From contig JBKPBS010000008.1 in assembly GCA_046726915.1 (NCBI GenBank), positions 10-64,009 on the forward strand: a stretch of DNA of 64,000 bases, written 5' to 3'. Positions 15,256 to 16,748 of this stretch are shown here, piece by piece; within the stretch, counting starts at the first letter, position 1, and each line of letters begins with the position of its first letter. The notes below the pieces were generated by a model. That model did no database searches, was not told the DNA's origin, and saw only the letters and a program-made list of their open reading frames with translations. A program made the position numbers and the translations under genes. This DNA is from Actinomycetota bacterium. Its GTDB lineage: Bacteria > Actinomycetota > Thermoleophilia > Solirubrobacterales > Thermoleophilaceae.

Positions 15256-15789
15256 ATGCGCAGCGAGCGCGGGCAGGCGACGGTCGAGTGGATCGGGATC
15301 GTGCTGCTGGTGGCCCTGGCTCTGGCCGCCCTGAGCCGCTTCGCGCCGCGAGCCGAGGGCCGGAGCCTGGCCGCGACGGTGCTCGGGTCGGTCACCCATC
15401 CGGCTCGCGCGGCCGATCCCGCTCGATTGGCCCGCCCGGCTGGTCCGGTCGGCCGCCCGCCTCGGCCGGCATCGCCGCCGATTCCGCGGCGGGAGAGCTT
15501 CGTCGTGCCCCCACTCGTTCCGAGGCCGGGCCAGTCGCCGCCCCGCCTGCGGATCCGGCTGCCGGAGGCGCCGGCCCTTCTCGAACGGGCGCGGCGCGGC
15601 GGTGGCACTGCCTGGCGGCGTGCCTGGATCGCGTGCCTCGTCTACGAGCGCTTCAGGTACGCGTTCCTCCATCCGGAGAGCCGCTTCCCGGGCCACACGA
15701 TCCCGCCCTCCGAGGTGCTGCGGATGGCGAACGACTGCATCAGCCCGGTCGACCTCGTGCGCGACTGGCCGCTGGTGAGGGGTCGATGA
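15256..15789 (+). CDS. TadE-type leader protein, Pro-rich (177 aa)
   Basis: MRSERGQATVEWIGIVLLVALALAAL is the TadE/pseudopilin-like N-terminal signature (ERGxAxVE plus a hydrophobic helix). The rest is Pro/Arg-rich with a structured C-terminus. ATGA overlap with the next gene. Confidence 0.6.
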   Translation: MRSERGQATVEWIGIVLLVALALAALSRFAPRAEGRSLAATVLGSVTHPARAADPARLARPAGPVGRPPRPASPPIPRRESFVVPPLVPRPGQSPPRLRIRLPEAPALLERARRGGGTAWRRAWIACLVYERFRYAFLHPESRFPGHTIPPSEVLRMANDCISPVDLVRDWPLVRGR

Positions 15790-16748
15790 CGGCGGAGCGC
15801 GGGCAGGCCGCCGTCGAGTTCGTCGCTCTCCAGTTGATCTGCTGTCTCGCCCTTGGTGCGCTGTTGGCGTTTGGGCAGGACTTTGACGGGCGCTCGTTCG
15901 GCGGGTTTCTCGCCCGGCACGTCGTCTGCGCGGTGAGCGGCCGCTGCGATCGCGACGAGCGCCGCCTGGCCGCCGCCTACGGCGAGCGCGATGCGTCCCT
16001 GGTCCGCGCGCTGGCGCCGAACCTCGTCTATGAGCCTGGTGAGCGGGAGCTTCCCGTCGATTGGCGGCGCTGTCGCCGGCCGCAGTGTGCCGGCGAGCGC
16101 GACGATCGCTCTCTCGACACGCACGTGAGCGAGGGAGGGGCGCGCGCGACCGCCTTCACCCGCCTGATCCGCCGAGGCGGCCGGCTCTACGTCCAGTACT
16201 GGCTCTACTACCCGGACTCCAACACCGCTCTCGCCGGGTCGGACAAGCTTTGGGAGCGCTCCTGGCTCCTTCCGCGGATTCGCGACCTGATCAGCGGCAC
16301 GCCCGACTATCCGGGCTTTCACAAGGACGACTGGGAGGGCGTCTTCCTTAGGGTCGACCCGGACGGCAGCACTTGGATGCGCGCCAGCTCGCACGGCCAC
16401 CTCCAGGGCTGCAAGTGGCGCGCCTGCCATGACCGCTGGGTCCGGAGCACCGGCTGGGTGCGGGTCTCGCGCGGGAGTCACTCCGGCCACGTGCCCTTCC
16501 GGAGCGAGCCGCGCTGGCGGAGCCCGGGGCACCCGGTCTCCCAGCGCTACATGCCGCTGAGGGGCCTGCCTCGCCGCATCCCGCTCCTGCCCGGCCGCGA
16601 CTTCGACGAGCGCAGCACCACCGGCGAGGGCCTCCGCCTGGTCCCGCTCGAGACCCGCGACCACCGCCGCTACGGGCCGCTCGACCCCGAGGTGAAGCCG
16701 CCCTGGCGCAAGGAGGCGTACGCCGACCCCGAGAGCAGGGAGTCCTGA
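15786..16748 (+). CDS. TadE-type leader fused to a Cys-rich HxxDWE (Vps62/NLP-like) domain
   Basis: MTAERGQAAVEFVALQLICCLALGALL, then LYVQYWLYYPDSN...GFHKDDWEGVFLRV...ASSHGH...VSRGSHSGHVP. This is the same motif series as the 5514..6704 protein. Confidence 0.7.
   Translation: MTAERGQAAVEFVALQLICCLALGALLAFGQDFDGRSFGGFLARHVVCAVSGRCDRDERRLAAAYGERDASLVRALAPNLVYEPGERELPVDWRRCRRPQCAGERDDRSLDTHVSEGGARATAFTRLIRRGGRLYVQYWLYYPDSNTALAGSDKLWERSWLLPRIRDLISGTPDYPGFHKDDWEGVFLRVDPDGSTWMRASSHGHLQGCKWRACHDRWVRSTGWVRVSRGSHSGHVPFRSEPRWRSPGHPVSQRYMPLRGLPRRIPLLPGRDFDERSTTGEGLRLVPLETRDHRRYGPLDPEVKPPWRKEAYADPESRES

What the first reader, a model, noticed from the sequence alone, without database searches (positions are those of the whole stretch)
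15256..16748. Orphan pair of TadE-type leader proteins, the second carrying another HxxDWE Cys-rich domain
Both ORFs begin with the pseudopilin-like signature M(R/T)(S/A)ERGQA(T/A)VE(W/F) followed by a hydrophobic helix, typical of TadE/TadG-family proteins of Flp/Tad pili. They overlap by ATGA. No tad/cpa assembly gene (ATPase, secretin-like, prepilin peptidase, Flp pilin) is present in this 64-kb window. The second protein fuses that leader to LYVQYWLYYPDSN...GFHKDDWEG...SSHGH...GSHSGH, the motif series of the 5514..6704 protein, again with paired cysteines. A pilus-type leader delivering a Vps62/NLP-like domain would be an unusual cargo and may indicate a pilus-tip or surface effector.
Basis: partly seen in the sequence, partly recalled or inferred. 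Interest (0 to 1): 0.65.

Follow-up and report, generated by a model that had tools for sequence, protein, structure and literature searches.

The report
Prepilin-type leader on an NLP-like protein
Two overlapping genes of a soil actinobacterium (Thermoleophilaceae) encode exported proteins that share a pilin-type N-terminal signal, and the second carries a very divergent copy of the NLP/Vps62 "necrosis-toxin" fold; the pair is real and conserved across the lineage, but nothing links it to a pilus and its function is untested.

Summary
ORF1 (15256..15789, 177 aa) and ORF2 (15786..16748, 320 aa) overlap by ATGA. Each begins with a 6-residue leader ending in Gly, then Gln+1, Glu+5, an aromatic at +6 and about 21 hydrophobic residues. 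That is the textbook class III (Flp/TadE-type) signal.

Both genes are real. GC3 is 0.87 and 0.90, and ORF2 dN/dS is 0.23-0.36. ORF2 has 1,684 database relatives and lies in fixed synteny in 59 Thermoleophilia species genomes. ORF1 occurs only in Thermoleophilaceae, and its first 57 residues are homologous to those of ORF2.

The TadE label fails: PF07811 matched 0 of 70 family members. There are only sub-threshold hits to Class_IIIsignal and DUF4244.

The ORF2 body folds confidently (pLDDT 82). Its only significant PDB matches are NLP cytolysins, and H179/D182/W183/E184/H203 align with the NLP GHRHDWE pocket. It is homologous to the 5514..6704 protein (hhalign 96%, E 4e-9), whose family bridges Vps62 and NPP1.

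No tad gene lies near it in the window or in any related locus.

Best reading: a core-genome, membrane-anchored, cation-dependent glycan or lipid head-group binder with an accessory partner. Processing by a prepilin peptidase and any pilus role remain untested. This is a new variant of known kinds, of moderate interest.

The parts
15256..15789 (+). ORF1, 177 aa. Class III-type signal, then a hypervariable Pro/Arg-rich linker, then a conserved helical C-terminal domain.
   Evidence: ORF and translation. 248 homologues, all hypothetical. Alignment A2. AF2 model. GC3 0.87.
15256..15273 (+). ORF1 hydrophilic leader MRSERG, ending in the invariant Gly (-1).
   Evidence: All 120 listed homologues have G-Q-x-x-x-E-aromatic, and 108 of 120 have a 6-residue leader.
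15274..15336 (+). ORF1 hydrophobic tract QATVEWIGIVLLVALALAALS: 21 residues, Gln+1, Glu+5, Trp+6.
   Evidence: Fits the class III signal definition in PMC4471445.
15397..15567 (+). ORF1 linker, residues 48-104. It is disordered, Pro/Arg-rich, and variable in length and sequence among homologues; some carry tandem repeats.
   Evidence: Alignment A2. pLDDT about 47-64.
15568..15786 (+). ORF1 C-terminal helical domain, residues 105-177, containing AWRRAW.C..YER.R...H..S...G, two invariant Cys (C127, C161) and NDC.SP.D..RDW.
   Evidence: 23 invariant columns. pLDDT about 90 for residues 120-160. No PDB fold match and no Pfam hit.
15777..15789 (+). Translational coupling: a GAGG Shine-Dalgarno-like site at 15777..15780 and the ATGA stop/start overlap at 15786..15789.
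   Evidence: Read directly from the sequence.
15786..16748 (+). ORF2, 320 aa. Class III-type signal, then a helical stalk with CX5C, then a divergent NLP/Vps62-superfamily beta-sandwich.
15786..15872 (+). ORF2 leader MTAERG followed by the hydrophobic tract QAAVEFVALQLICCLALGALLAF (Glu+5, Phe+6).
   Evidence: G6, Q7 and E11 are at least 90% conserved in A1. 115 of 120 close homologues carry the motif. Helix 4-29 in the model.
15888..16010 (+). ORF2 helical region, residues 35-75, with the conserved C48-x5-C54 and Y65-G66. Its first part is shared with ORF1.
16017..16745 (+). ORF2 NLP-like domain, residues 78-320. It includes C96-x4-C101, YVQYWLYYPDS (134-145), SSHGH (200-204), GSHSGH (230-235) and PPWRK..Y.DPES at the C-terminus.
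   Evidence: All 15 PDB fold hits with E<=1e-3 are NLPs, and the next hit has E 0.15. The profile against PDB sequences returns only NLPs.
16320..16337 (+). HKDDWE (H179-E184), the counterpart of HRHDWE in the NLP heptapeptide GHRHDWE.
   Evidence: H179, D182, W183 and E184 are invariant and D181 is at least 90% conserved. They align with H101/D104/W105/E106 of NLPPya. Those NLP residues are listed as critical in PMC7031652.
5514..6704 (+). Distant paralogue, 396 aa. It has an ordinary N-terminal hydrophobic anchor or signal and a Vps62/NPP1-like domain with GDHEGDWEG.
   Evidence: 23 of 28 family members hit Vps62 and 15 of 28 hit NPP1. hhalign against the ORF2 family: prob 96%, E 3.8e-9.

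Best explanation
ORF1 and ORF2 form a translationally coupled two-gene unit of the Thermoleophilaceae core genome. It encodes two exported, membrane-anchored proteins.

Shown:
- Both proteins begin with the same 57-residue module. It consists of a 6-residue hydrophilic leader ending in Gly, a hydrophobic helix of about 21 residues with Gln+1, Glu+5 and Trp/Phe+6, and a short helix that often carries CX5C.
- This module has the architecture of a class III (prepilin, Flp/TadE-type G/XXXXE[YFW]) signal peptide.
- The ORF2 body is a highly divergent member of the NLP/Vps62 beta-sandwich superfamily. The His/Asp/Trp/Glu/His residues that form the cation-binding surface pocket of NLP cytolysins are conserved in it.
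- ORF1 took its N-terminal module from ORF2 by partial duplication. It adds a long disordered Pro/Arg-rich spacer and a small conserved helical domain with two Cys.

Inferred:
- Both proteins insert N-in/C-out into the membrane.
- The leader is probably removed by a prepilin peptidase encoded elsewhere in the genome.
- The mature proteins stay anchored by the hydrophobic helix, either free in the membrane (as in the archaeal bindosome) or in a short pseudopilus.
- ORF2 uses its cation pocket to bind a sugar or inositol-phosphate-type head group of an envelope glycolipid or glycan.
- ORF1 acts as a lineage-specific accessory or partner.
- The fixed housekeeping synteny and neighbour-like purifying selection argue for an envelope maintenance or recognition role, not a mobile toxin.
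For: - Gene reality and coupling.
- Family size and full-length conservation: 1,684 hits for ORF2, and the top 120 are 66-99% identical over the full length. There are 340 representatives at 50% clustering. ORF1 has 248 hits.
- Taxonomic range: all 59 species-level loci are Thermoleophilaceae, Solirubrobacterales or unclassified Actinomycetota MAGs.
- Synteny in Thermoleophilaceae: permease, Gfo/Idh/MocA oxidoreductase, ORF1, ORF2, patatin, acyltransferase, acyl-CoA synthetase, kept in whole or in part in 17 loci.
- Synteny in Solirubrobacterales: pntAB and a LapA-domain protein, then ORF2 alone, then an SDR, an EgtB-like and an EgtD-like gene, in about 35 loci.
- Leader: invariant G-1/Q+1/E+5, matching the class III definition (PMC4471445) and the G/XXXXEY or G/XXXXE[FS] sites of Flp and actinobacterial TadE/F (PMC4322843). 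There are weak hits to PF04021 (E 0.0076) and to DUF4244, the actinobacterial Tad prepilin (E 0.023; PMC11418510).
- Shared N-terminal module of ORF1 and ORF2: prob 98.8%.
- NLP fold: model pLDDT 82.4, pTM 0.80. Foldseek gives 15 hits at E 1.5e-5 to 3e-4, all NLPs, and the next hit has E 0.15.
- Pocket residues: the profile-to-PDB alignment places HrdDWE on HRHDWE and RassH on SASAH (H128). These are the residues listed as critical in PMC7031652.
- Link to Vps62/NPP1 through the 5514 family.
- Conserved Cys pairs (C48/C54, C96/C101) suggest an extracytoplasmic location (inference).
Against: - No Pfam or NCBIfam model reaches threshold for either protein. TadE never matches.
- No prepilin peptidase, Flp, TadA, TadB or TadC gene was seen in the scanned part of the window or in any of the 59 related loci. 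Whether these genomes have such a machinery at all was not established.
- Neither model shows a pilin globular head (alpha1C packed on a beta-meander).
- The exact GQATVEW leader was found only on ORF1 and ORF2 family members in a metagenome scan. It may be a family-specific membrane module, not a generic sorting signal.
- TM-scores to NLPs are modest (0.37-0.46 normalised by target), and the sequence-profile E-value against PDB is only 0.06.
- Ligand, cation binding, topology, processing and expression are all untested, and no RNA data were found.
Confidence: 0.55

Rival explanations
1. ORF2 is a modular minor (pseudo)pilin that a Tad/Flp machinery encoded elsewhere mounts at a pilus tip. There it presents an NLP-like module as an adhesin or as a cytolytic effector against eukaryotic (plant, fungal or oomycete) membranes. 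ORF1 is a second minor pilin.
For: - The Flp/TadE-type processing-site architecture (PMC4322843).
- At 177 aa, ORF1 is in the size range of actinobacterial TadE/F.
- Modular pilins with grafted lectin or vWA modules are common and are tip-located (PMC8179133).
- The NLP fold and cation pocket are conserved.
- The organisms live in soil, where membranes carrying the known NLP lipid receptor occur (for the habitat; the receptor is established knowledge).
Against: - The gene is never adjacent to tad genes in 59 species, whereas Flp and TadE genes are almost always in tad loci (PMC4322843).
- TadE and TadE/G HMMs fail.
- Neither model has a pilin head domain.
- Single-copy core-genome synteny and dN/dS like the neighbouring genes are atypical of effectors.
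Confidence: 0.15
2. The N-terminal module is an uncleaved signal-anchor. The conserved G-Q...E-W motif serves a family-specific purpose, such as helix-helix pairing between ORF1 and ORF2 or with another membrane partner. It has nothing to do with prepilin peptidases or filaments. ORF2 is then simply a type II membrane protein with an NLP/Vps62-like ectodomain.
For: - In a scan of 120 metagenome stretches, the exact leader occurs only on these two families.
- The whole 57-residue module, not just the signal, is shared by ORF1 and ORF2.
- There are no pilus genes nearby.
- All class III or pilin HMM hits are sub-threshold.
- The paralogous 5514 protein uses an ordinary hydrophobic N-terminus.
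Against: - Invariant Gly at -1 together with Glu at +5, a 6-residue hydrophilic leader and a 21-residue hydrophobic tract is exactly the class III signature.
- A plain anchor would not be expected to keep this over the 30-76% sequence divergence of the family.
Confidence: 0.25
3. The HxDDWE / H203 / S231-H232 constellation is a catalytic metal site. On this reading ORF2 is a membrane-anchored hydrolase or lyase acting on envelope lipids or glycans, not a binding protein. It might work with the downstream patatin, acyltransferase and acyl-CoA synthetase genes.
For: - Invariant His, Asp and Glu residues.
- Lipid-remodelling genes lie immediately downstream in 17 Thermoleophilaceae species.
Against: - No enzymatic activity is known for NLPs. 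Established knowledge is that they bind a lipid head group.
- The lipid-gene adjacency is lost in Solirubrobacterales, where the gene lies between pntAB and ergothioneine-type genes.
- There are no fold matches to hydrolases at meaningful E-values.
Confidence: 0.05

Closest known systems
NLP cytolysins (Nep1-like proteins, Pfam NPP1 PF05630), e.g. NLPPya (PDB 3GNZ, 5NNW), MpNEP2 (3ST1), HaNLP3 (6QBE)
   Same: - They are the only significant fold matches.
- The core of the GHRHDWE heptapeptide (H, D, W, E) and H128 are conserved and aligned.
- A YxWYxP(K)DS-like strand lies upstream (inference).
- Conserved Cys pairs are present.
   Different: - There is no PF05630 hit for ORF2. Only 2 of 40 family members hit weakly (E 0.018).
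- Sequence identity is 10-16% and TM-scores are 0.37-0.46.
- ORF2 has a class III-type anchor and a helical stalk in place of a cleavable Sec signal.
- ORF2 has long insertions at residues 146-176 and 245-262.
- It is a core chromosomal gene of a non-pathogenic soil lineage, not an effector family of plant pathogens.
- Its activity is untested.
Vps62 / DUF946 family (PF06101) and the window's own 5514..6704 protein
   Same: - Both share the H.GDWE / H.DDWE motif, and profile-profile homology is significant (prob 96%, E 3.8e-9).
- 23 of 28 members of the 5514 family hit Vps62 and 15 of 28 hit NPP1.
- The motif similarity between Vps62 and NLP is noted in PMC13159263.
   Different: - ORF2 itself does not hit PF06101. 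Only 1 of 40 family members does (E 0.33).
- The N-terminus differs: class III-type in ORF2, ordinary hydrophobic in the 5514 protein.
- The aligned region covers only the N-terminal half of the domain.
Flp prepilins and TadE/TadF pseudopilins of Tad (type IVc) pili (PF04964, PF14029 DUF4244, PF07811)
   Same: - The processing-site architecture G/XXXXE[Y/F/W] followed by about 20 hydrophobic residues.
- ORF1's size is close to the roughly 150 aa of actinobacterial TadE/F.
- The ORF1 leader hits DUF4244 weakly (E 0.023).
   Different: - There is no TadE HMM match.
- The genes are not in a tad locus in any genome examined.
- ORF2 carries a 240-residue non-pilin domain.
- Processing is untested.
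Modular type IV pilins (S. sanguinis PilB with a vWA module, PilC with a lectin module) and the Sulfolobus bindosome sugar-binding proteins that carry class III signals
   Same: A class III-type signal is fused to a ligand-binding, metal-dependent or lectin-like module (PMC8179133; PMC4471445).
   Different: - Those proteins are encoded with, or depend on, a known filament machinery, and the pilins keep a pilin head module.
- Here there is no machinery link and no pilin head. The leader is Flp-like, not type IVa-like. The module is NLP-like, an architecture not reported in the papers read here.

Membership tests
TadE / TadE-G-like pseudopilins (PF07811, PF13400) | Match to the family HMM | tested here: not met
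   No hit at E<=10 for ORF1 or ORF2, for any of 40 ORF2-family members or 30 ORF1-family members, or for 5 isolated leaders.
TadE / TadE-G-like pseudopilins (PF07811, PF13400) | Flp-type processing site G/XXXXE[Y/F/S] ahead of about 20 hydrophobic residues | tested here: met
   G/QATVEW in ORF1 and G/QAAVEF in ORF2. The site is present in 120 of 120 listed ORF1 homologues and 115 of 120 ORF2 homologues. Motif definition from PMC4322843.
TadE / TadE-G-like pseudopilins (PF07811, PF13400) | Encoded within a tad locus (tadA, tadB, tadC, flp) | tested here: not met
   No such genes flank the pair in the window, in 17 syntenic Thermoleophilaceae loci, or in about 40 Solirubrobacterales loci.
TadE / TadE-G-like pseudopilins (PF07811, PF13400) | Cleavage by a TadV-type prepilin peptidase | not testable with these tools
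   This needs biochemistry.
Class III signal peptide proteins (type IV pilin superfamily) | Hydrophilic leader of 6-26 aa ending in Gly, then about 21 hydrophobic residues interrupted by Glu5 | tested here: met
   MRSERG|QATVEWIGIVLLVALALAALS and MTAERG|QAAVEFVALQLICCLALGALLAF. Conservation. Definition in PMC4471445.
Class III signal peptide proteins (type IV pilin superfamily) | Match to a curated signature (PF04021 Class_IIIsignal, DUF4244) | tested here: not met
   Only sub-threshold hits: PF04021 in 2 of 40 members, best E 0.0076; DUF4244 at E 0.023 and 14.5 bits against a cutoff of 27.
Class III signal peptide proteins (type IV pilin superfamily) | Pilin fold: a long alpha1 helix packed on a beta-meander head | tested here: not met
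   The ORF2 model has helix 4-29, three further short helices and then the NLP-like sandwich. ORF1 is all-helical with a disordered linker. Models of the N-terminal parts are of moderate confidence.
NLP (NPP1, PF05630) | Match to PF05630 above the gathering score | tested here: not met
   No hit for ORF2. 2 of 40 family members hit, best E 0.018.
NLP (NPP1, PF05630) | NLP beta-sandwich fold | tested here: met
   Foldseek finds 15 NLP chains at E 1.5e-5 to 3.1e-4 with prob 1.00, and the next non-NLP hit has E 0.15. TM-scores normalised by target are 0.37-0.46, so the relationship is remote.
NLP (NPP1, PF05630) | GHRHDWE heptapeptide and pocket residues (D93, H101, D104, E106, H128) | tested here: met
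   GFHKDDWE: H179, D182, W183 and E184 are invariant and align with H101, D104, W105 and E106. H203 aligns with H128. The D93 counterpart (D144 of YYPDS) is inferred, not aligned by the tool. The motif is not identical: Phe is inserted after Gly, and His103 is replaced by Asp.
NLP (NPP1, PF05630) | Secreted through a class I signal; cytolytic or lipid-head-group-binding activity | not testable with these tools
   The N-terminus is class III-like, not class I. Activity needs experiments.
Vps62 (PF06101) | Match to PF06101, or demonstrable homology to members | tested here: inconclusive
   ORF2 gives no hit, and 1 of 40 family members hits at E 0.33. However, the ORF2 family is homologous (prob 96%) to the 5514 family, of which 23 of 28 members hit Vps62 (best E 5.9e-7).

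The most novel reading that the evidence does not exclude
ORF2 is the first example of an NLP-superfamily module presented on a prepilin-type (Flp-like) anchor. On this reading it is a cation-dependent lectin for inositol-phosphate glycolipid head groups. The target could be the bacterium's own phosphatidylinositol-glycan envelope lipids, or the related sphingolipid head groups of fungi and plants. The module would be displayed from the membrane or from a short Tad-type pseudopilus, with ORF1 as a co-assembled spacer subunit. That would place the NLP toxin fold's origin in a housekeeping envelope protein of an ancient actinobacterial lineage.
Probability: 0.15. Interest if true: 0.75.

Novelty: new variant of a known kind. 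Interest (0 to 1): 0.5.

Why it matters
NLPs are studied almost only as secreted cytolysins and immune elicitors of plant pathogens, and Vps62 proteins have no known mechanism. Here a lineage-wide, vertically inherited, membrane-anchored relative keeps the cation pocket and lies in the core genome of abundant soil Thermoleophilia.

That suggests the fold has a non-toxin, envelope-related ancestral role. It also offers a bacterial system in which to find the pocket's natural ligand.

The family further extends the range of cargo carried on class III-type signals to an Flp-like leader encoded away from any pilus locus. Finally, it defines two uncharacterised protein families, the ORF1 C-terminal domain and the ORF2 family, that no Pfam or NCBIfam model reached.

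Tried and rejected
- NCBIfam and PADLOC gave no hits for ORF1, ORF2 or the 5514 protein.
- The Rfam and tRNA scans of the window found nothing.
- The promoter and terminator consensus scan of 14900..17100 found nothing, as expected for a 71% GC genome.
- Expression could not be assessed. No RNA runs were found, and only soil-metagenome DNA runs hold 4-13% of the sampled words.
- The ORF1 fold search gave no match better than E 3.4, so its C-terminal domain remains unassigned.
- I scanned metagenome contigs for DNA encoding GQATVEW to ask whether other cargo proteins share the leader. Of 121 matches, 34 were ORF1 or ORF2 family members and 7 were truncated N-termini with ORF1- or ORF2-like continuations. 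The remaining 80 were internal or chance matches. No other leader-bearing family was found.
- I rejected a functional link with the downstream patatin, acyltransferase and acyl-CoA synthetase genes, because the adjacency is confined to Thermoleophilaceae.
- I rejected a mobile-element or defence-island reading because synteny is fixed, composition is unremarkable and PADLOC gave no hit.
- The long alternative ORFs overlapping the region (15288..16748 extended start; 15642..17882 on the minus strand) are treated as high-GC artefacts. The conserved Met-5/Gly-1 start and GC3 support the frames and starts given here.
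Full report
**What is in the sequence**

The window is about 71% GC throughout. ORF1 runs 15256..15789 (177 aa) and ORF2 runs 15786..16748 (320 aa). The ORF1 stop and the ORF2 start share ATGA, and a GAGG lies 5 nt upstream of the ORF2 ATG. ORF1 begins MRSERG|QATVEWIGIVLLVALALAALS. ORF2 begins MTAERG|QAAVEFVALQLICCLALGALLAF. A six-frame scan finds no other such leader in the 64 kb.

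Third-position GC is 0.87 for ORF1 and 0.90 for ORF2, like the flanking genes. Against six orthologues, dN/dS is 0.23-0.36 for ORF2 and 0.26-0.69 for ORF1, compared with 0.15-0.41 for the neighbouring oxidoreductase and patatin genes. Both are therefore real genes under purifying selection. No transcript data could be found.

**Distribution and context**

ORF2 has 1,684 relatives at E<=1e-3 in the large protein collection. The best 120 are full-length and 66-99% identical, all are unnamed, and none has a Pfam domain. An exhaustive search of 50%-identity representatives gives 340 clusters. ORF1 has 248 relatives, also unnamed.

In one-genome-per-species data, 59 loci encode an ORF2 relative. 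All that carry a taxonomic label below phylum are Thermoleophilaceae or Solirubrobacterales MAGs.

In 17 Thermoleophilaceae loci the order sugar-ABC permease, Gfo/Idh/MocA oxidoreductase, ORF1, ORF2, patatin-like phospholipase, acyltransferase, SRPBCC/AMP-binding enzyme is kept in whole or in part.

In about 35 Solirubrobacterales species the 30-35% identical orthologue stands alone, with no ORF1. It lies between pntA-pntA2-pntB plus a LapA-domain protein on one side and an SDR, an EgtB-like and an EgtD-like gene on the other.

No tad, cpa or pil gene is adjacent anywhere. None turned up among the 30 window proteins scanned with Pfam.

**The leader**

Across 40 diverse ORF2 relatives, G6, Q7 and E11 are at least 90% conserved. 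Across 30 ORF1 relatives they are invariant. In all 120 listed ORF1 relatives and 115 of 120 ORF2 relatives the pattern is [E/Q]-R-G|Q-A-[T/S]-V-E-[W/F], followed by about 20 hydrophobic residues. The commonest leader length is six residues.

[quoted passage not shown] More specifically, it matches the Flp/TadE-type site G/XXXXEY or G/XXXXE[FS] (PMC4322843).

Family membership fails, however. TadE (PF07811) and TadE/G-like (PF13400) never match at E<=10 for the two proteins, for 70 family members or for isolated leaders. The only hits are sub-threshold:
- Class_IIIsignal PF04021, in 2 of 40 members, best E 0.0076.
- DUF4244, E 0.023, for the ORF1 leader. This family is annotated as the Tad prepilin of bifidobacteria (PMC11418510).

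The two proteins share more than the signal. Their first 57 residues are homologous (prob 98.8%, E 5e-17), including a post-membrane DGRS motif and, in many ORF1 homologues, the same CX5C as ORF2. ORF1 exists only where ORF2 does, and only in Thermoleophilaceae. It therefore most likely arose by partial duplication of the 5' end of ORF2.

A scan of metagenome contigs for DNA encoding GQATVEW returned 121 matches. Every one in which the heptad is an N-terminal leader belongs to the ORF1 or ORF2 family (34 classified, 7 truncated). The rest are internal chance matches. This exact leader is therefore family-specific. It does not tell us whether a prepilin peptidase acts on it.

**The ORF2 body**

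With a 40-sequence alignment, AlphaFold2 gives pLDDT 82.4 and pTM 0.80. The model has helix 4-29, short helices to residue 75, and then a beta-sandwich.

Foldseek against the PDB returns 15 hits with E<=1e-3, and every one is an NLP (NLPPya, HaNLP3, MpNEP2, PcNLP485; E 1.5e-5 to 3.1e-4; prob 1.00). The next hit has E 0.15. TM-scores normalised by target are 0.37-0.46, so the relationship is remote.

Independently, a sequence profile of the family searched against all PDB sequences returns only NLPs (E 0.06-0.26). It aligns G-y-H-r-d-D-W-E with I-G-H-R-H-D-W-E and R-a-s-s-H with S-A-S-A-H of NLPPya. That puts H179, D182, W183, E184 and H203 on H101, D104, W105, E106 and H128. These are among the residues listed as critical for NLP activity and as forming the surface cavity (PMC7031652). 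H179, D182, W183 and E184 are invariant and H203 is at least 90% conserved in the family.

I infer, but did not show, that D144 of YYPDS corresponds to D93 of NLPPya (WYMPKDS). PF05630 itself does not match ORF2; 2 of 40 relatives hit weakly.

**Relation to the 5514..6704 protein**

Pairwise BLASTP is marginal (E 0.002 over 78 aa). Profile against single sequence gives E 2e-4 with prob 46%. After collecting 65 relatives of the 5514 protein, profile against profile gives prob 96% and E 3.8e-9 over 127 columns.

Of 28 members of the 5514 family, 23 hit Vps62 (best E 5.9e-7) and 15 hit NPP1 (best E 4.2e-4). That family thus bridges the two Pfam families, and ORF2 is a more divergent branch of the same superfamily. 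The similarity of the Vps62 HVGDWEH motif to GHRHDWE has been remarked on in the literature (PMC13159263).

**ORF1**

The model has a membrane helix (7-29), a second helix (35-47), a disordered linker (48-104) and a confident helical C-terminal domain with pLDDT about 90. The linker is Pro/Arg-rich and hypervariable in length and sequence, with tandem repeats in some homologues. The last 65 residues include 23 invariant positions and two invariant Cys. There is no fold match and no Pfam family.

**How it most likely works**

Shown:
- Two coupled genes.
- A shared class III-type N-terminal module.
- An NLP/Vps62-superfamily ectodomain with the pocket residues conserved.
- Paired cysteines.
- Core-genome inheritance with no pilus genes nearby.

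Inferred:
- Both proteins insert N-in/C-out.
- A prepilin peptidase encoded elsewhere probably removes the six-residue leader. Actinobacterial tad loci typically lack the peptidase gene (PMC4322843).
- The mature proteins remain anchored by the hydrophobic helix. They could be free in the membrane, as proposed for the archaeal bindosome proteins that carry class III signals (PMC4471445), or in a short pseudopilus.
- ORF2 binds a sugar or phospho-inositol-type head group through a divalent cation, by analogy with NLPs. PDB entries 5NNW and 5NO9 are NLPPya with glucosamine and mannosamine.
- ORF1 is a lineage-specific partner.

I put 0.55 on this overall picture. Within it, I put about 0.55-0.6 on prepilin-type cleavage.

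**Comparison and novelty**

The parts are of known kinds: class III signals, modular pilin-like fusions (more than 1,200 proteins in 264 architectures; PMC8179133) and the NLP/Vps62 fold. What is new:
- The combination of an Flp-like leader with an NLP-like module.
- Its location away from any filament locus.
- Its status as a conserved core gene of Thermoleophilia.
- The unassigned ORF1 C-terminal domain.

No curated model reached either family. I rate it a new variant of a known kind, with interest 0.5.

Noticed in passing
window 5514..6704 (+): A 396-aa protein with an ordinary N-terminal hydrophobic segment and a GDHEGDWEG domain. Its 65-member family hits both Vps62 (23 of 28 members) and NPP1 (15 of 28), so it bridges the two Pfam families. 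Some relatives are about 600 aa long and carry extra C-terminal sequence.
   Followed up: partly
window 15397..15567 (ORF1 residues 48-104) and homologues P0144, P0184, P0199, P0128: The ORF1 linker is hypervariable. Some homologues carry tandem peptide repeats, e.g. (QPFPIPPAHPPTE)n, (SIPRGGG)n and (GRPLEPLA)n, which suggests rapid repeat expansion and contraction.
   Followed up: no
proteins P0242, P0278, P0256: Some database gene calls join the ORF1 C-terminal domain to ORF2 in a single protein. One 948-aa call runs from an ORF1-like N-terminus through ORF2 and beyond. It was not resolved whether these are real fusions or frameshift and assembly artefacts.
   Followed up: no
window 58327..60393 (-): A 688-aa radical SAM protein also gives a sub-threshold match to the intein splicing domain (residues 131-422; 27.1 bits against a cutoff of 35.8).
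   Followed up: no
window 60927..62582 (+) and 62638..63867 (+): Two adjacent GGDEF + HD_5 (HD-GYP-type) proteins, likely a tandem duplication of c-di-GMP turnover enzymes.
   Followed up: no
window 17965..18879 and 18693..20978 (+): The SRPBCC + AMP-binding ORF overlaps the preceding acyltransferase ORF by 187 nt as mechanically called, so its true start is probably further downstream. In several related loci the SRPBCC part is missing from the match.
   Followed up: no
loci L076, L093, L113, L115, L132, L142, L147, L156, L157, L173 and others: The GQATVEW DNA scan also picked up, by chance, a recurrent small protein of about 62 aa (M..VTI.LGNNGV.L.IADN.G.HVG.LRIGQATVEW[RC]KG[RK]TR.GNG.K...) in many unrelated metagenome contigs. 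It is an apparently conserved small protein family of unknown function, unrelated to the finding.
   Followed up: no
window 24496..25818 (-), 27824..28465 (-), 21037..21567 (+), 57863..58330 (+): Four ORFs, two of them (24496..25818 and 27824..28465) with signal-peptide-like N-termini, have no Pfam match. 21658..22254 (-) has a transglycosylase-like (Rpf-type) domain.
   Followed up: no
L055 10001..10874 and the adjacent gene; L058 13753..14148: In two Solirubrobacterales genomes the ORF2 orthologue is tandemly duplicated or has a second partial copy nearby.
   Followed up: no
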